From TPA_inf: Saccharomyces (lineage: Eukaryota), in the NCBI GenBank assembly GCA_000146045.2, contig BK006942.2, positions 288,001 through 352,000 of the forward strand: a DNA stretch of 64,000 nt, read 5' to 3'. Position numbers and translations under genes: made by a program. Within the stretch, counting starts at the first letter, position 1. The number at the start of each line of letters is the position of its first letter. Under the pieces are notes generated by a model, which saw only the letters and a list, made by a program, of their open reading frames with translations, had not been told where the DNA came from and did no database searches. Positions 12,010 through 51,343 of this stretch are shown here, piece by piece.

Positions 12010-12227
12010 GACTTTCACACTTCTAGTCTCTTTGATTCAATTAGTGGTACTCTTGGCTAAAAAAACAGTTTTTGAAATCAGTAACAAAGAACTATTCTTA
12101 ACGTAATCTTATGGCTTCATAGATCGGTCATAATCATCTTTTCAATGTCCTCAATCGATGCGTTTTCAACCAGTTTTCCGTCTCTAATGATTTAATTTTT
12201 CTATTGAATTGAAAATGGTAAAAAGAT

Positions 12228-12300
12228 AGCCCTGTAGGGGGCTCGAACCCCTAACCTTATGATTAAGAGTCATACGCGCTACCGATTGCGCCAACAAGGC
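12228..12300 (-). tRNA. tK(CUU): tRNA-Lys (anticodon CUU)
   Basis: Reverse complement reads GCCTTGTTGGCGCAATCGGTAGCGCGTATGACTCTTAATCATAAGGTTAGGGGTTCGAGCCCCCTACAGGGCT, a cloverleaf with a CTT anticodon loop and internal A and B boxes. A T-run lies at the 3' flank. Confidence 0.93.
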
Positions 12301-12354
12301 TATTTCGTTGGAAAAACTACTTATTTTAGGAAGTAATAGCACATTTAAGATGCT

Positions 12355-12407
12355 TGTTGGAATGAAACTTTAAAATATCATCTGTTTAGTACTATTCATG
12401 TTACTAA
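12355..12407 (+). mobile_element. 5' fragment of a Ty1/Ty2 delta LTR
   Basis: TGTTGGAATGAAACTTTAAAATATCATCTGTTTAGTACTATTCATGTTACTAA resembles the delta 5' end (TGTTGGAATAGAAATCAACTATCATCTACTAACTAG...). It abuts the next LTR. Confidence 0.5.
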
Positions 12408-12727
12408 TTAAGATATGGGTGAATTTTGAGATAATTGTTGGGGGTTCCATTGTTGATAAAGGCTTATAATATTATGTATACGGAATATACTAGAAGTTCT
12501 CCTCGAGGATCTAGGAATCCTCATAATGGAATCTATATTTCTATATACTAATATTACGATTATTCCTCATTCCGTTTTATATGTTTCATTCTCCTATTAC
12601 ATTATCAATTTTTGTATTTCAGCTTCCTCTAACCTCGATGACAGCTTCTCATAATTTACGCCATCCTCTTACACCGCATGTGATGCTATTACTACTAAAT
12701 AGATAACATTAGAATTTCATTCCAACA
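12408..12727 (-). mobile_element. Solo Ty1/Ty2 delta LTR in reverse orientation, upstream of tK(CUU)
   Basis: Reverse complement matches the delta consensus (...TTCACCCAT...GAGGATTCCTA.CCTCGAGGAGAACTT...TATAAAACGGAATGAGGAA...) and ends with TGTTGGAA at 12727. It is the inverse of the delta at 36831. Confidence 0.8.
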
Positions 12728-36105: not shown

Positions 36106-36302
36106 GAAATCTGGAGTACAATTTCTTTATAGCATATAAATATCAAATATATAGTCATTTTTAATACATGGAAAGCATAATAAAAAAACAAGGGGAGTTT
36201 TACTGATATCATTGGGATATATAAAACAAAATAGTAATATTATGCAGCCATCACAATTTTGAACAAGTAGCACATTATTCATTGAATAAATGCTAAAAAA
36301 AT

Positions 36303-36374
36303 CTCCGCGACGGGGAATTGAACCCCGATCTGGCACGCGACAAGCGCCCATTCTGACCATTAAACTATCACGGA
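36303..36374 (-). tRNA. tD(GUC): tRNA-Asp (anticodon GUC), copy 1
   Basis: Reverse complement is TCCGTGATAGTTTAATGGTCAGAATGGGCGCTTGTCGCGTGCCAGATCGGGGTTCAATTCCCCGTCGCGGAG, yeast tRNA-Asp. A T7 Pol III terminator sits on the 3' side. Confidence 0.95.
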
Positions 36375-36390
36375 ATATTAGATGTGATAT

Positions 36391-36830: not shown

Positions 36831-37164
36831 TGTTGGAATAAAAATCCACTATTTTCTATCAACTAATAGTTATACTATCAATATATTATCATATACGTTG
36901 TTAAGATGATGACATAACTTATGAGAAGCTGTCATCGAGGTTAGAGGAAGCTGAAATACAAAAATTGATAATGTAATAGGATAACGAAACATATAAAACG
37001 GAATGAGGAACAATCGTAATATTAGTATGTAAAAATATAAATTCCACTTTGAGGATTCCTATGTCCTCGAGGAGAACTTTCAGTATATTCTGTATACATA
37101 ATATTATAAGCATTTATCAACAATGGAACCCCCAACAATTATCTCAAAATTCACCCATTTCTCA
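36831..37164 (+). mobile_element. Solo Ty1/Ty2 delta LTR (334 bp)
   Basis: Runs from TGTTGGAATAAAAATCC to ATTCACCCATTTCTCA and contains TATAAAACGGAATGAGGAA and GAGGATTCCTATGTCCTCGAGGAGAACTT. Confidence 0.9.
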
Positions 37165-37215
37165 AATATTATATAGCCTTTACTAACAACGGAATTCCAA
37201 CAATTATCTAATTAT
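37165..37215 (+). mobile_element. Short 3'-end fragment of a second delta LTR
   Basis: TATAGCCTTTACTAACAACGGAATTCCAACAATTATCT repeats the delta 3' terminal region right after the complete delta. Confidence 0.45.
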
Positions 37216-37747: not shown

Positions 37748-37820
37748 GCTTCTATGGCCAAGTTGGTAAGGCGCCACACTAGTAATGTGGAGATCATCGG
37801 TTCAAATCCGATTGGAAGCA
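37748..37820 (+). tRNA. tT(AGU): tRNA-Thr (anticodon AGU)
   Basis: GCTTCTATGGCCAAGTTGGTAAGGCGCCACACTAGTAATGTGGAGATCATCGGTTCAAATCCGATTGGAAGCA, a cloverleaf with an AGT anticodon followed by a T-run. Confidence 0.93.
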
Positions 37821-45352: not shown

Positions 45353-45726
45353 GCGAGGTTACTCAGAAACTGTGACTGAAGGCAGAGGTTGGAAACGTGT
45401 GTAGACTCCAAATGGAACGATAGGAACGTGTACCCTACCGCTTCTGCACACGTTTCTTAGATATGCGTGCCTTAAGGCGACCCATTGTTCCTGTTTACCA
45501 TGATTTCTGTAGGCTTTTTTTTAGAAGGCCCTAGAATGGATTGCAGATTTCCGTCTGAGAAGGCAGTATACGTACATATGAATATATATATACATATATT
45601 CTTTGGTGGAGAGTATAAGCGTTTCGTCTCCTCTTCCTTTCTCTACTGCAGATTTTCTTGCTGGTTGTTTGATTTTTTCTTTTTAGTGTTCCCCAGATCC
45701 AATTGTTCAACCGCCCACACACAACA

Positions 45727-46536
45727 ATGTCTTTCACTAAAATCGCTGCCTTATTAGCTGTTGCCGCTGCCTCCACTCAATTGGTTTCTGCTGAAGTTGG
45801 ACAATATGAAATCGTCGAATTTGACGCTATTTTGGCTGATGTCAAGGCCAATTTGGAACAATATATGTCCTTGGCAATGAATAATCCAGACTTTACCCTA
45901 CCATCTGGTGTTTTGGATGTTTACCAACATATGACCACTGCTACTGATGATTCCTACACCAGTTATTTCACCGAAATGGACTTTGCTCAAATCACCACTG
46001 CCATGGTTCAAGTGCCTTGGTACTCTTCTAGACTGGAACCTGAAATCATCGCTGCTTTACAAAGCGCGGGTATCAGTATTACCTCCTTAGGTCAAACCGT
46101 TTCCGAATCTGGTTCCGAATCTGCCACTGCTTCCTCAGACGCTTCTTCTGCTTCTGAATCCTCTTCAGCTGCTTCTTCTTCTGCTTCTGAATCCTCTTCA
46201 GCTGCCTCCTCTTCTGCTTCTGAATCCTCTTCAGCTGCTTCTTCCTCTGCTTCAGAATCTTCTTCTGCTGCCTCCTCTTCTGCTTCTGAAGCTGCTAAGT
46301 CTTCTAGCTCTGCCAAGTCTTCTGGCTCTTCTGCTGCTTCATCTGCTGCTTCATCTGCTTCTTCCAAGGCCTCTTCTGCAGCTTCCTCTTCTGCAAAGGC
46401 CTCCTCTTCTGCAGAAAAATCTACTAATAGCTCCTCCTCTGCTACCTCCAAGAACGCTGGTGCAGCTATGGACATGGGCTTCTTCTCCGCTGGTGTTGGT
46501 GCCGCTATTGCCGGTGCCGCTGCTATGCTCTTATGA
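45727..46536 (+). CDS. TIR3: Srp1/Tip1-family cell-wall mannoprotein (anaerobically induced)
   Basis: Annotated start MSFTKIAALLAVAAAS (269 aa), with a signal peptide, Ser/Ala-rich repeats and a GPI-like hydrophobic C-terminus. The ORF track starts 8 codons upstream. Confidence 0.88.
   Translation: MSFTKIAALLAVAAASTQLVSAEVGQYEIVEFDAILADVKANLEQYMSLAMNNPDFTLPSGVLDVYQHMTTATDDSYTSYFTEMDFAQITTAMVQVPWYSSRLEPEIIAALQSAGISITSLGQTVSESGSESATASSDASSASESSSAASSSASESSSAASSSASESSSAASSSASESSSAASSSASEAAKSSSSAKSSGSSAASSAASSASSKASSAASSSAKASSSAEKSTNSSSSATSKNAGAAMDMGFFSAGVGAAIAGAAAMLL
46141..46300 (+). repeat. In-frame 33-bp tandem repeat, about 4.4 copies, encoding (SESSSAASSSA)n inside TIR3
   Basis: The unit tctgaatcctcttcagctgcttcttcttctgct is repeated with a few substitutions from about 46153 to 46284. 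Confidence 0.85.
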
Positions 46537-46833: not shown

Positions 46834-47529
<696 letters not shown>

Positions 47530-47665
47530 AGTTTAATAACCCCCTTTTTGTTTCTCTAGAGGAGTACTTATCGGTAAAATATTCCAAACCCTTCCCTTTA
47601 TATATGTAGATAAACGAAGATATTCTAACTCTCTCACACTTATAAAATATCGAGCCTGCAGAAGG

Positions 47666-48212
47666 TCATAAATATTTATATACAAATGGGAAAGTACTTA
47701 ACGATCCGACTTGATCAATATCAAATATCGTGGCCTGGTTTACATTGAGAACGGGCACTATTTCTTTGGACGAAATGTTGCTTAGGCAAATTTTGAAGTG
47801 AGACATTGCTCGAGAATTTGTTACGTAGACTAAGTCAGCATCGCCAATGATCATTAAGCAATTGGTCGTCTCAGATGTGATCCTGCAATTATGAGTCCTT
47901 TCAAAATTAGATACACACTCTTGGGAAAACTCAACTAAGTATTTGGTGTGAGGAATCTCTTATCGATGCGTATACCTTGTAGTCGCAAACGTTATAAAAT
48001 TTTGTAATTTTGGCGAAATGGCACGGATTGGTTAAAATTGTCGGGCTCATATGCGGTAGCGCTAAGTCCTGCTTGGTCAAGCTAGGAATTACATGGCCAG
48101 AGGGATGATATTGATCATGCTCCGAGTTGTCTTCAATTAATGCCTTTATCCATGGTTGTAGAAAAACTGAGTCTGTTGGCTTTGAATGAGACTCCAGAAT
48201 TACTTTCGGCAT
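47666..48212 (-). CDS. EST3: Telomerase subunit Est3, made by a programmed +1 ribosomal frameshift: complement(join(47666..47935, 47937..48212))
   Basis: ORF1 (93 codons) ends ...HQIL-S-stop at the heptamer CTT-AGT-T (plus strand 47933-47939). The +1 frame continues [38 protein letters not shown]... to a stop at 47666, giving 181 aa. The track shows the two pieces as separate ORFs. Confidence 0.92.
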
Positions 48213-48348
48213 TGTTTACTTGTTATCCCGATTTGTACCCAGGATTTACAGCTTTTAATTCATTATCTATGGTCAACTTTTGCTGTCTAGTTTCATATTT
48301 ACTCGCTACCGTTTCACCAACTGTAGTCATCAGTTATGGTAAAAAAAT

Positions 48349-48420
48349 CTCCGCGACGGGGAATTGAACCCCGATCTGGCACGCGACAAGCGCCCATTCT
48401 GACCATTAAACTATCACGGA
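48349..48420 (-). tRNA. tD(GUC): tRNA-Asp (anticodon GUC), copy 2, identical to copy 1
   Basis: The same 72-nt sequence as at 36303-36374, with the same TAAAAAAA 3' flank. Confidence 0.95.
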
Positions 48421-48699
48421 TTTGTTTCTATGAAAATTTCGTTTATTTGTATAGTATATGTTTTTTTAAAATATAATGAGAATCTGGTAGAAAAGTGTTG
48501 ATAACTAGCAGTTTAAAACGTATCATTTGTTGAAATAAGTACCAACTATCATCCGTCGACTAGTACTCACACAACTATTGAGAAATTCGTAAGTTTTGTA
48601 AAACTGTTGGATACCGTTGCTGTTGAAGGCTATAGTAATAGGCATACAAAATTAGCGGAAGTTTACCTTGGAAATATATCCACAAAAGGGAAACGATAT

Positions 48700-48930
48700 T
48701 TCCTCATAATAATATTGTAATTTCTTTTTCTTTTTATATGTTTCATTATCCTATACATTACCAATACTTGCATTTGAGCATTCATTAAATCTGATGGGTA
48801 CATCTCAATCTTTCTGTCATCTTTTTATAGCATATATGGTAACATGCTAGTAGTATGAATACTAGTCGATATACGTAAATAAATTTTCATTTTAAAATGG
48901 ATATGCCTAATCTGATAGATTCTATTAGCT
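48700..48930 (-). mobile_element. Diverged delta-like solo LTR remnant upstream of tD(GUC) copy 2
   Basis: CTTTTTATATGTTTCATTATCCTATACATTACCAATACTTGCATTTGAGC is similar to the reverse complement of the delta internal region (CGTTTTATATGTTT.TATTC...CCTATTACATTATCAATCCTTGCGTTTCAGC). The rest is weaker, so the boundaries are approximate. Confidence 0.4.
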
Positions 48931-51225
48931 GATTTTTCTACTACTTTTCATGTTCGTTTTTCAATAATTTGCAAGTTATATATCTTTGCCTCCGCTATAC
49001 CGTGATGAAGGTTAATGCGTAAGTTGCAGGCGAGGCATGATATGGACCACAACCCAGTTCGAACATAAAGAACTGAAAAACCATGAGCTGTTTGATTAAT
49101 TCAAAACAGCTGCTCACAATTTGGCCCAAGTTCAAACCTTTGTCTTTGAAGCATGGAACGTGCCGTTATTTTCATGCTAGTGTAATTTTTGCCTGTTTCA
49201 TCCCTCCCATCAAAAAATTCATCACGAAGTGCTAAAGGAAAACAAAAAAAATATCAAAGAGAGGAGACGGCTTAAAAGCCCTTATTCAATTGAAGAAATC
49301 CCCTGACCTCTGCAAAAAATCTATCGTTTATTTTATTTCTTTGTCTTACGTAACAAATTTATTTTCTGGGATGATGTCAATTCTATTTGGCACGCGAGTC
49401 ATCGTCTATATAAGGAGGTAACGAGGTCCTTGTATATTTGATGATCCTCACTATCAACACGTCGAGGGACGGTTGGTGACGAACTCAACTTATGTTATAG
49501 TTTTGGACCACTCTTTTCCTTGAAAAATTACAGGCATTATACGCAGTCCTGGGGCAGGAGCGCTTCGATCATTAGCATAACAGGATCACGGTTATCACCT
49601 GTTTTGTTATAATTCATGGCCTTTAGGTCATGACGTAAAATAATCGGAGTGAAAAAATGAAATCAAAGGCTATCATTTTTAGGGGAACTAAAGCACAAGG
49701 ATTTGAAGGCGTAGTGAAATAATGAATAATAGATAATCTATGGACCGAACACAGACGTATTTAAAGACAATACAAGGCCATTAATTCCCTTCGGAGGGCT
49801 CCCGATGGGAGGATTCTTAGCATGCTCTTTCTAGCCAACAGTATCACTTTCATCAGAAAACGGAAGCCTCCAAAAAGCTACGCTAAACGCTTTTTTGTTT
49901 TGGATTATCGCAGAAAATTGGTGACATTCTTGATTAAGAATAAACGGTGACTAGCAAGAAAAGGACATGTCAGGTACCAGTAAAGTCCGATTTAAGATCA
50001 AATCAGCGCCTTTAAAGAATCTTGAGATCTTAGTAATCCCGATGGAAGGAAAGAGGTAAACAAACGAATAACTTAACCCTTAAGATGATTCTATACATAG
50101 CATGATCTATCCAAGGAACGACCGACGCCCTTAAAAGGGTTCTGCTCAGATTTCGTTAAATACCCGGACCATCGTAGATGATTGTTTTTACTCTCCCCTA
50201 ACGATGTACTATGCCATAATAAGCATTTTTTTTTTCTTTCTTCACTGCAGCTCTGCTTTGAAAACACTACATCTAAGGCGCTGACGCCAACGCCCAGACT
50301 AAATCATCATATAATATCAAACGCCCAACAAAATATTAGAAATAGCTCAACAATAGAGCGCCAAAAGTTTACCGGAACGAACCATCATTGTTTACAGGCA
50401 AGCACCCATTTGGAAGGGTACGTAAACTAAATAAATAAGACAAGAAATTTTTTTTATATCTGGAATTTCCTTTGCATTTTAGTGATCCCACCATTACAGA
50501 TAACTAAACCAGGATAAAAAACAAAAATAATGACATTAATGATACCTTAACTAACGTATAGCAAGCGAAGCAACCACCCATCAGATTTTTGTCCCCGTTT
50601 GGAAACTGGAATGCTATGACCACTTTTATCACTACAGCTAACCACTTGTCGGAATGAAGATACGAAAGAGAAATCTTTATTGGACCACTTTTTCTTTCGC
50701 TAGAGGTCCTACCTAGCGTATTGCACCCAAGTGATTATTGCGACCTCTGAGTGTCAGAAACTTACGAAGTAAAATTCATAGTTGTGCCTTTCGTCAAGAA
50801 TCGGAAAGCGTAAAAATAGGCTACGGTCTTTGTCAAGGCGAAATTTTGGAGATTTCAGACGCATGATACCAGCAGTTTTTGGTAATATACTTTTTCAGGT
50901 AAAAGCTTTCTACGGCCACTGAAAGTAATGCAGAAGCTTAAGGCTACAGATGAAATGGCCGACCCAAACTAACCAAGCACAACATCAATTACAGAACCGA
51001 CAATCGAAAATCCTAAAAAAAAAGAACATCGAGTGAACTTTTCGTTATCTCAAAGCTTTAAAGTTAAAAGTGGCAGAAGCCTTGGCTATTCTGTTTCTCT
51101 CTTAGATTCTCGCACGACAGCATCGAGCGAAGTTGCAAAACCATATATTTCAGTTCTCTAAACGATCTTTCCCCGAACTCCAATCGAAATAGACTTAACC
51201 CGCAACATAACTGACATTCTTCCTC

Positions 51226-51250
51226 TTTTTTTTTTTTTTTTTTTTTTTTT
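51226..51250 (+). promoter_or_regulatory. T25 homopolymer (poly dA:dT) about 95 bp upstream of the FAA3 ATG
   Basis: An uninterrupted run of 25 T. Such tracts exclude nucleosomes at yeast promoters. Confidence 0.6.
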
Positions 51251-51343
51251 GCTATTTGCTTTCTGCATGCATAAAAGCGAGACTAGCGTATTAACACTTT
51301 ATCACTTTCCCTCTCTTCCTGAAGCTGACATGAGCATACATCA

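What the first reader, a model, noticed from the sequence alone, without database searches (positions are those of the whole stretch)
47666..48212. EST3 programmed +1 ribosomal frameshift is readable directly in the sequence
Two minus-strand ORFs of 93 and 62 aa overlap in different frames. Joining them at the slippery heptamer CTT-AGT-T (the same type as the Ty1 CUU-AGG-C site, with the rare AGU codon followed by a UGA stop in the 0 frame) reproduces the 181-aa telomerase subunit Est3. The ORF track alone would mis-annotate this as two small hypothetical ORFs. The biology is known, but it is the most unusual decoding event in the window.
Basis: partly seen in the sequence, partly recalled or inferred. 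Interest (0 to 1): 0.55.

Follow-up and report, generated by a model that had tools for sequence, protein, structure and literature searches.

The report
Known EST3 +1 ribosomal frameshift site
This is the yeast telomerase-subunit gene EST3, whose full 181-residue protein is made only when the ribosome skips one base at CUU-AGU-U; the finding is correct, but it has been textbook knowledge since 1997.

Summary
On the minus strand a 93-codon ORF (48212..47931) ends ...CTT AGT TGA. The +1 frame is open from 47959 to the stop at 47668..47666. Skipping the A at 47936 gives a 181-aa protein that is 100% identical to PDB Est3 chains and to "telomerase subunit EST3 [S. cerevisiae S288C]". The two halves match adjoining parts of one Pfam domain (TPP1/Est3, profile 1-70 and 71-154).

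CTT-AGT-TGA and a gene length of 3n+1 recur in all nine other Est3 loci fetched, across six genera. Leu92 CTT and Val93 GTT are the only degenerate invariant-residue columns that keep a single codon in all eight species compared.

The heptamer alone is not informative: it occurs 6 times in the window against 11 expected. Its position is what matters.

Minor corrections:
- The two ATG-started ORFs do not overlap; only the open frames do, by 29 nt.
- The C-terminal part is 89 aa, not 62.
- AGU is not rare in usage; the literature suggests it may be slowly decoded.

Programmed +1 frameshifting, which the literature attributes to peptidyl-tRNA-Leu re-pairing CUU to UUA, is already known (Morris and Lundblad 1997, cited from later papers). 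Low novelty.

Side observations: a tRNA-Asp gene conserved just upstream of EST3, and a Y55 assembly that lacks the 5' half of EST3.

The parts
47666..48212 (-). EST3 (YIL009C-A) coding region, 547 nt (3n+1), ATG to final TGA. It encodes the 181-aa Est3 through one +1 shift.
47931..48212 (-). Frame-0 ORF1 of 93 codons plus TGA. Codons 1-92 supply the N-terminal half of Est3. Without a shift it gives a 93-aa product ending ...QILS.
   Evidence: Pfam PF10341 profile 1-70, E = 3e-18
47933..47939 (-). Shift heptamer CTT-AGT-T: P-site CUU (Leu92), frame-0 A-site AGU, +1 A-site GUU (Val93). The skipped base is A at 47936.
   Evidence: Invariant in the window and in all nine other Est3 loci fetched. 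Named as the EST3 site in PMC12661321, PMC12719033 and PMC5009743.
47931..47933 (-). Frame-0 UGA stop directly after the AGU codon. It is an automatic by-product of the +1-frame GTT-GAR (Val-Glu) and is invariant in all loci.
47666..47935 (-). The +1-frame part: V93-L181 (89 codons) plus the TGA at 47668..47666. The frame is open upstream as far as 47959.
   Evidence: Pfam PF10341 profile 71-154, E = 1.6e-24
47905..47931 (-). Approximate position of the published 27-nt 3' stimulator, placed here only on the assumption that it starts directly after the heptamer; the primary paper could not be read. Its effect is disputed. In this work the conservation here sits at codon positions 1-2 only, and no stable structure is predicted.
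   Evidence: PMC5009743 reports 8-fold stimulation; PMC12661321 saw no stimulation
48349..48420 (-). tRNA-Asp(GUC) gene on the same strand, 136 nt upstream of the EST3 ATG. This is context and not part of the frameshift signal.
   Evidence: the linkage is conserved in other yeasts

Best explanation
Window 47666..48212 (minus strand) is the Saccharomyces cerevisiae gene EST3. It encodes the OB-fold (TPP1-like) regulatory subunit of telomerase and is decoded with a programmed +1 ribosomal frameshift.

Ribosomes start at the ATG at 48212 and read 92 codons. They reach CUU-AGU-U with peptidyl-tRNA-Leu on CUU in the P site and AGU in the A site. AGU is thought to be read slowly, because it needs wobble pairing. 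During that pause the peptidyl-tRNA re-pairs from CUU to the overlapping UUA. The abundant Val-tRNA then reads GUU in the +1 frame, and translation continues for 89 codons to give the 181-aa Est3.

Ribosomes that do not shift read AGU and terminate at the adjacent UGA. They release a 93-aa fragment that holds only half of the OB fold.

What is shown here: the anatomy, the identity of the joined product, the domain continuity, and codon-level conservation of the site. What is taken from the literature or inferred: the tRNA-slippage step and the efficiency. Efficiency was about 10-15% in recent reporter and ribosome-profiling work and higher in older reports.
For: Anatomy: the heptamer is in phase 0, a TGA follows, and the +1 frame is open for 89 codons.

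Product: the joined protein is identical over 181/181 residues to PDB 9swn_C and over residues 13-181 to 2m9v_A, both named Est3. It is also identical to the S288C EST3 protein.

One domain split in two: the Pfam TPP1/Est3 profile matches 1-70 in ORF1 and 71-154 in the +1 part. The joined protein scores 167.8 bits against a cut-off of 26.5.

Conservation: nine other loci were fetched. They come from a second S. cerevisiae strain (Y55), a Saccharomyces sp., N. dairenensis, N. castellii, Z. bailii, Z. parabailii, Z. mellis, T. globosa, K. africana and E. gossypii being the species set. All carry CTT AGT TGA. In the eight annotated non-cerevisiae records the gene span is 3n+1, and the same single-base skip gives an uninterrupted Est3.

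Codon-level test: across 8 species there are 24 invariant-residue columns with degenerate codons. Only Leu92 (CTT in 8 of 8) and Val93 (GTT in 8 of 8) use a single codon. Leu6 uses 6 different codons and Leu155 uses 4.

Literature: the shift site, mechanism, ribosome profiling and efficiency are in PMC12661321. The 181-aa trans-frame product, the UGA at codon 94 and about 150 Myr of conservation are in PMC5009743. The correlation with the tRNA-Leu repertoire is in PMC12719033. Ribosome-profiling detection is in bioRxiv 10.1101/2022.06.06.495024. Purification papers 'correct' the natural +1 frameshift before expressing Est3 (PMC3088721).
Against: Nothing found here contradicts it. Caveats:
- The slippage step itself cannot be seen in DNA.
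- The heptamer is not statistically unusual.
- The reported 3' stimulator is not supported by synonymous-site conservation or by predicted RNA structure. A 2025 study did not reproduce it (PMC12661321).
- Efficiency estimates in the literature disagree widely, from about 10% up to high values.
- A frame-corrected allele reportedly has no growth phenotype (PMC5009743), so the selective reason for keeping the shift is not established.
Confidence: 0.97

Rival explanations
1. The frame break is a sequencing error or an inactivating mutation. On this view the locus is a pseudogene, or really a single ORF.
For: A one-base frame break is what an indel error looks like. Several public annotations do treat the locus as truncated or as 'LOW QUALITY PROTEIN'.
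Against: The identical break at the identical heptamer is found in independent genome assemblies from six genera. The exact 93-aa ORF1 product is recorded on 147 contigs. The cluster members listed are either 181 aa or 93 aa, which is consistent with the same frame break across many S. cerevisiae strains. The CTT and GTT codons are under codon-level constraint. Both halves retain strong domain signal.
Confidence: 0.005
2. The two frames are joined at the RNA level, by a small intron, RNA editing or transcriptional slippage, and not by the ribosome.
For: Some automated annotations model the locus with an intron. The Z. mellis model P0045 has 150 aa over a 517-nt span.
Against: The gene contains no GTATGT, GTACGT or GTATGA 5' splice site and no TACTAAC branch point. 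There is no homopolymer of 6 or more at the site; the only run of 5 or more is TTTTT at 48166. The Z. mellis 'intron' deletes the conserved HFVKITKFFNV...YASIRDS..Q segment, which the +1 join restores. Reporter constructs carrying only the heptamer shift frame (PMC12661321).
Confidence: 0.01
3. Two separate small proteins are made: the 93-aa ORF1 product, and a 62-aa product started at Met120.
For: Both ORFs exist mechanically. Both are deposited as proteins in public databases. The 93-aa termination product is expected to be made by ribosomes that do not shift.
Against: Each piece covers only part of one OB-fold domain. Starting at Met120 would drop V93-L119, the most conserved block of the family: VEFTPxCVSxFER...RITSET. 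Solved structures contain the continuous 181-aa chain. The +1 frame is kept open from the heptamer onward in all species, not from a conserved internal ATG.
Confidence: 0.01

Closest known systems
S. cerevisiae EST3 (YIL009C-A) programmed +1 frameshift (Morris and Lundblad 1997, Curr Biol 7:969, as cited in PMC3088721 and PMC5009743)
   Same: It is this gene. The protein is identical over 181 aa, with the same CUU-AGU-U site and the same UGA at codon 94.
   Different: Nothing.
Ty1 / ABP140 / YFS1 (YPL034W) CUU-AGG-C +1 frameshift sites
   Same: Same P-site codon CUU. The proposed mechanism is also the same: tRNA-Leu(UAG) re-pairs CUU to UUA while a slow A-site codon is awaited (PMC12661321, PMC5009743).
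   Different: The A-site codon is AGU (Ser, read by wobble) rather than AGG (Arg, scarce tRNA). The incoming +1 codon is GUU (Val) rather than GGC (Gly). The heptamer alone is less efficient, about 15% against about 40% (PMC12661321).
Ty3 GCG-AGU-U +1 frameshift site
   Same: Same A-site part (AGU-U), and the same +1 codon GUU read by Val-tRNA.
   Different: The P-site codon GCG cannot re-pair in the +1 frame. Ty3 is thought to shift without peptidyl-tRNA slippage. The ABP140 stem-loop boosts the EST3 heptamer but not the Ty3 one (PMC12661321).
Mammalian TPP1 (ACD) OB-fold / Pfam PF10341
   Same: The joined Est3 matches the TPP1 domain profile almost end to end, positions 1-154 of 158, E = 2e-49.
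   Different: This concerns the protein fold only. Whether TPP1 genes outside budding yeasts need a frameshift was not tested here; from my own knowledge they do not.

Membership tests
Est3 / TPP1 OB-fold telomerase subunit (Pfam PF10341) | Sequence match to the family profile above the curated cut-off | tested here: met
   167.8 bits against a cut-off of 26.5, E = 2.1e-49, profile 1-154 of 158
Est3 / TPP1 OB-fold telomerase subunit (Pfam PF10341) | Identity with experimentally characterised Est3 | tested here: met
   181/181 identical to PDB 9swn_C, and residues 13-181 identical to 2m9v_A. The exact sequence is named 'telomerase subunit EST3 [S. cerevisiae S288C]'.
Programmed +1 ribosomal frameshift, Ty1-type (CUU-A-NN-N) | Shift-prone heptamer with CUU in the frame-0 P site and a slowly decoded A-site codon, placed inside the overlap of the two frames | tested here: met
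   CTT AGT T at 47939..47933 is in phase 0 and lies inside the 29-nt overlap 47959..47931. That AGU may be slow to decode comes from PMC12661321, not from this sequence. AGT is not rare by usage.
Programmed +1 ribosomal frameshift, Ty1-type (CUU-A-NN-N) | The trans-frame product is a single coherent protein, with homology continuous across the junction | tested here: met
   Pfam profile positions 70 and 71 abut at the junction. The QILVEF junction is invariant in orthologue alignments.
Programmed +1 ribosomal frameshift, Ty1-type (CUU-A-NN-N) | Evolutionary conservation of the site at the nucleotide level, beyond what the protein requires | tested here: met
   CTT and GTT are the only codon-invariant degenerate columns among 24 across 8 species. 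The heptamer plus TGA is invariant in all loci fetched.
Programmed +1 ribosomal frameshift, Ty1-type (CUU-A-NN-N) | Ribosomes actually change frame at the site in vivo | not testable with these tools
   Taken from the literature: reporter assays and ribosome profiling (PMC12661321; bioRxiv 10.1101/2022.06.06.495024)
Programmed +1 ribosomal frameshift, Ty1-type (CUU-A-NN-N) | Matching tRNA repertoire: tRNA-Leu(UAG) reads CUU, and there is no tRNA-Leu(IAG) | not tested
   The 64-kb window holds only tRNA-Lys, two tRNA-Asp and tRNA-Thr genes, so a genome-wide tRNA set is needed. The correlation is reported in PMC12719033, citing Farabaugh 2006.
3' stimulator-dependent frameshift site (27-nt EST3 stimulator, Taliaferro and Farabaugh 2007) | A downstream sequence conserved at the nucleotide level, or a structured element | tested here: inconclusive
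   Downstream conservation is confined to codon positions 1-2. E94, F95, V100, F103, E104 and R105 all vary synonymously. The fold z-score is 0.00. Literature is split: PMC5009743 reports 8-fold stimulation, while PMC12661321 saw none. The primary paper was not available.

The most novel reading that the evidence does not exclude
The frameshift may be one half of a conserved two-layer throttle on Est3 abundance. The other half would be the tRNA-Asp gene that sits 79-141 nt upstream of the EST3 start codon, on the same strand, in Saccharomyces, Naumovozyma castellii, Torulaspora, Zygosaccharomyces mellis and Eremothecium. That Pol III gene could dampen or gate Pol II transcription of EST3. The CUU-AGU-U site would then tie Est3 output to tRNA supply. 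Alternatively the linkage is plain synteny, and the frameshift persists without any regulatory role.
Probability: 0.1. Interest if true: 0.45.

Novelty: already known. Interest (0 to 1): 0.1.

Why it matters
As a discovery it does not matter much. EST3 frameshifting was described in 1997 and appears in the reference annotation and in reviews.

It does matter as a quality check. The first-stage reader correctly read a recoding event straight from raw sequence. The case also shows how ORF-based or intron-based gene callers still mishandle it:
- 93-aa and 62-aa 'Est3p' entries are in public databases.
- A Z. mellis gene model uses a fake intron.
- A Y55 gene model starts inside a tRNA gene.

The open biological questions are why the shift is retained when a frame-corrected allele grows normally, and whether a 3' stimulator exists. 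This analysis does not advance them beyond a small negative result on synonymous-site conservation.

Tried and rejected
- **Heptamer frequency as evidence.** Rejected: CTTAGTT occurs 6 times against 11 expected. Position, not presence, is informative.
- **Other heptamers.** The other 17 Ty1/EST3-type heptamers in the window were examined. Those with long +1 frames (for example 9526, 9769, 59032) are simply C-TTA-GGT / C-TTA-GTT read in the normal frame of a long ORF and have no upstream ORF of their own. None of the 16 long ORFs carries an in-frame CTT-AGT-T or CTT-AGG-C.
- **RNA structure downstream.** The minimum free energy is -18.9 kcal/mol against -18.9 for shuffles, z = 0.00. Nothing there.
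- **Rfam.** Only four tRNA hits in the window and no frameshift-element family.
- **Splice signals and slippery homopolymers.** None found.
- **Taliaferro and Farabaugh 2007 (PMC1831869).** Not held, so the exact limits of the stimulator are approximate.
- **Encoding contigs for the joined 181-aa protein.** The exact-sequence cluster look-up was used in its place.
- **Non-frameshifted outgroups (Candida and similar).** None were retrieved by the two protein searches, so the phylogenetic origin of the shift rests on the literature (PMC12719033).

Full report
**1. What is in the sequence**

Reading the minus strand of window 47500..48400 and listing ORFs gives two ATG-started ORFs. One has 93 aa (48212..47931) and one has 62 aa (47854..47666), in different frames.

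A frame-by-frame stop map shows the following:
- The 93-codon ORF ends ...CAA ATA CTT AGT TGA.
- CTTAGTT occupies 47939..47933, with CTT in phase with the ATG.
- The +1 frame is open from 47959 (after a TAA at 47962..47960) down to the TGA at 47668..47666.

So the two open frames overlap by 29 nt (47959..47931), and the heptamer lies inside that overlap. The ATG-to-stop ORFs as listed do not overlap; they are 76 nt apart.

Skipping the single A at 47936 joins 92 codons of frame 0 to 89 codons of frame +1 and gives a 181-aa protein.

**2. Identity of the product**

The joined protein is identical over all 181 residues to PDB chain 9swn_C. Its residues 13-181 are identical to 2m9v_A. Both chains are named "Telomere replication protein EST3". 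An exact-sequence look-up finds it deposited as "telomerase subunit EST3 [Saccharomyces cerevisiae S288C]".

Against Pfam, the joined protein hits PF10341 (TPP1/Est3 OB fold) at 167.8 bits, profile positions 1-154 of 158. ORF1 alone covers profile 1-70. The +1 part alone covers 71-154. One domain is therefore split exactly at the junction.

The neighbours fit S. cerevisiae chromosome IX (gene names are from my own knowledge of the map):
- a 215-aa AhpC/TSA peroxiredoxin convergent with EST3 (DOT5-like);
- a TIP1-family protein and a 1411-aa PDR-type ABC transporter downstream of EST3, at lower window coordinates;
- an acyl-CoA synthetase-type AMP-binding protein beyond a tRNA-Asp gene (FAA3-like).

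**3. Is it more than chance?**

The heptamer alone is not. CTTAGTT occurs 6 times in the window against 11.0 +/- 3.4 expected from shuffles.

There are 18 CTTAG[TG][TC] sites on both strands. Only the one at 47939 has 91 codons from an ATG upstream, a frame-0 stop within two codons, and 89 open codons in +1. The other sites with long "+1" frames are ordinary C-TTA-GNN readings inside long ORFs.

**4. Conservation**

Two protein searches and contig look-ups gave EST3 loci from:
- Naumovozyma dairenensis and N. castellii;
- Zygosaccharomyces bailii, Z. parabailii and Z. mellis;
- Torulaspora globosa;
- Kazachstania africana;
- Eremothecium gossypii;
- a Saccharomyces sp. on a metagenome contig (90% aa identity to the window protein);
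- S. cerevisiae strain Y55.

Every annotated non-cerevisiae gene span is 3n+1 nt. Every locus has CTT AGT TGA at the end of its frame-0 ORF. The same one-base skip gives an uninterrupted Est3 of 168-202 aa with the junction Q/C-I/L/M-L-V-E-F.

A codon-level control was run across eight species at 39-49% identity to the S. cerevisiae protein. Of the 24 invariant-residue columns with degenerate codons, only Leu92 (CTT in 8 of 8) and Val93 (GTT in 8 of 8) keep one codon. Leu6 uses six codons, Leu155 four, Arg105 five. This is selection on the RNA sequence of the shift site itself. The frame-0 TGA follows automatically from GTT-GAR (Val-Glu).

Within S. cerevisiae, the exact 93-aa ORF1 product is recorded on 147 contigs. 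The cluster members listed are either 181 aa or 93 aa, which is consistent with the same frame break across many strains.

**5. Mechanism**

The DNA shows the anatomy. The mechanism comes from the literature.

CUU-AGU-U is described as a derivative of the Ty1/ABP140 site CUU-AGG-C. Peptidyl-tRNA-Leu on CUU re-pairs to UUA while the A-site codon is slow to be read, and the abundant Val-tRNA then reads GUU (PMC12661321; PMC5009743; PMC12719033).

The ABP140 stem-loop raises shifting on the EST3 heptamer from 15% to 40% but has no effect on GCG-type sites. This argues for P-site re-pairing at EST3 (PMC12661321).

Ribosome profiling shows the frame change at EST3 (PMC12661321 Fig. 3; bioRxiv 10.1101/2022.06.06.495024). 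Biochemists routinely "correct" the natural +1 frameshift before expressing Est3 in E. coli (PMC3088721).

AGT occurs 16.1 times per 1000 codons in the 16 long ORFs of this window and is the third most used Ser codon. The suggested slowness is attributed to wobble decoding (PMC12661321).

**6. The 3' stimulator**

A review reports an 8-fold stimulation by a conserved 27-nt sequence 3' of the site (PMC5009743, citing Taliaferro and Farabaugh 2007). A 2025 study found that the native context lowers, rather than raises, efficiency to about 10% (PMC12661321).

In my alignment the downstream conservation lies at codon positions 1 and 2 of a very conserved peptide (VEFTPxCVSxFER). Every invariant residue there varies synonymously. 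The 106 nt from the site onward fold no better than shuffles, z = 0.00.

This gives no support for a nucleotide-level element. It cannot exclude one that is confounded with the protein sequence. The primary paper was not available.

**7. Rivals**

- **Sequencing error or pseudogene.** Excluded by conservation across six genera and many strains.
- **RNA-level joining.** There are no splice signals and no slippery homopolymer. The one intron-style public model (Z. mellis P0045) deletes 27 conserved residues that the +1 join restores.
- **Two independent small proteins.** Each would hold only part of an OB fold. Starting at Met120 would lose the best-conserved block.

**8. Annotation consequences**

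Public databases show exactly that:
- the 93-aa product is deposited as "Est3p" or "Telomere replication protein EST3";
- a 62-aa "Est3p [CEN.PK113-7D]" is also present;
- various other models of 91-136 aa exist.

**9. Verdict**

The feature is the known EST3 programmed +1 frameshift. Novelty: already known. Interest is low.

**10. Seen in passing**

- A tRNA-Asp(GUC) gene lies on the same strand 79-141 nt upstream of the EST3 ATG in S. cerevisiae, the Saccharomyces sp., N. castellii, T. globosa, E. gossypii and Z. mellis. In N. dairenensis a tRNA-Ala occupies a similar position.
- The Y55 assembly LR813542.2 lacks about 380 bp. This fuses the tRNA-Asp trailer to EST3 codon ~87, and the shift site survives just downstream of the junction.
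- A second tRNA-Asp copy and a 270-nt inverted repeat next to tRNA genes are also present in the window.

Noticed in passing
window 48349..48420 (-); L005 824-895, L006 829-900, L008 850-921, L009 786-859, L010 225-298: A tRNA-Asp(GUC) gene sits on the same strand 79-141 nt upstream of the EST3 start codon in S. cerevisiae, a second Saccharomyces sp., N. castellii, T. globosa, E. gossypii and Z. mellis. N. dairenensis has a tRNA-Ala(AGC) 295 nt upstream. None was found upstream in Z. bailii or K. africana. So a Pol III gene has been kept inside the very short EST3 upstream region across several genera. This may be plain synteny, or it may dampen EST3 transcription.
   Followed up: partly
L004 1478-1580 (S. 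cerevisiae Y55 assembly LR813542.2), equivalent to window ~48335..47958: This assembly lacks about 380 bp. The tRNA-Asp 3' trailer is joined directly to EST3 at about codon 87, which removes the upstream region, the ATG and the N-terminal half of the gene. The deposited gene model (P0002, 116 aa) starts inside the tRNA gene. Whether this is a real deletion or an assembly error could not be decided.
   Followed up: partly
L009 1001-1517 (Z. mellis); public entries P0006, P0023, P0045: Public mis-annotations of EST3. The 93-aa ORF1 product is on 147 contigs under the name Est3p or 'Telomere replication protein EST3'. A 62-aa 'Est3p [CEN.PK113-7D]' is also deposited. A Z. mellis model bridges the frames with a fake 64-nt intron and so deletes 27 conserved residues.
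   Followed up: yes
window 47905..47931 (-) and orthologous positions: The third codon positions in the roughly 27 nt after the heptamer vary freely among 8 species, and the region has no predicted structure (z = 0.00). This gives no support for the published 'conserved 3' stimulator' beyond the protein-coding constraint. It agrees with the 2025 report that saw no stimulation (PMC12661321).
   Followed up: partly
window 36290..36374 and 48336..48420: There are two copies of the tRNA-Asp(GUC) gene 12 kb apart. They are 99% identical over 85 nt, which includes about 13 nt of 3' trailer.
   Followed up: no
window 12402..12671 and 36902..37171: A 270-nt inverted repeat, 92% complementary. Each arm lies close to tRNA genes: tRNA-Lys at 12227..12301, and tRNA-Asp at 36302..36375 with tRNA-Thr at 37748..37820. 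These are probably solo retrotransposon LTRs. Not examined further.
   Followed up: no
window 46113..46419 (+), inside ORF 45703..46536: Degenerate tandem repeats with 15-33-nt spacing encode a Ser/Ala-rich tract in the TIP1/seripauperin-family protein (PF00660) upstream of the DOT5-like gene.
   Followed up: no
window 48421..51343: About 2.9 kb between the tRNA-Asp gene and the FAA3-like ORF has no ORF of 120 aa or more; the longest lying wholly within it is 82 aa. Its content was not characterised.
   Followed up: no
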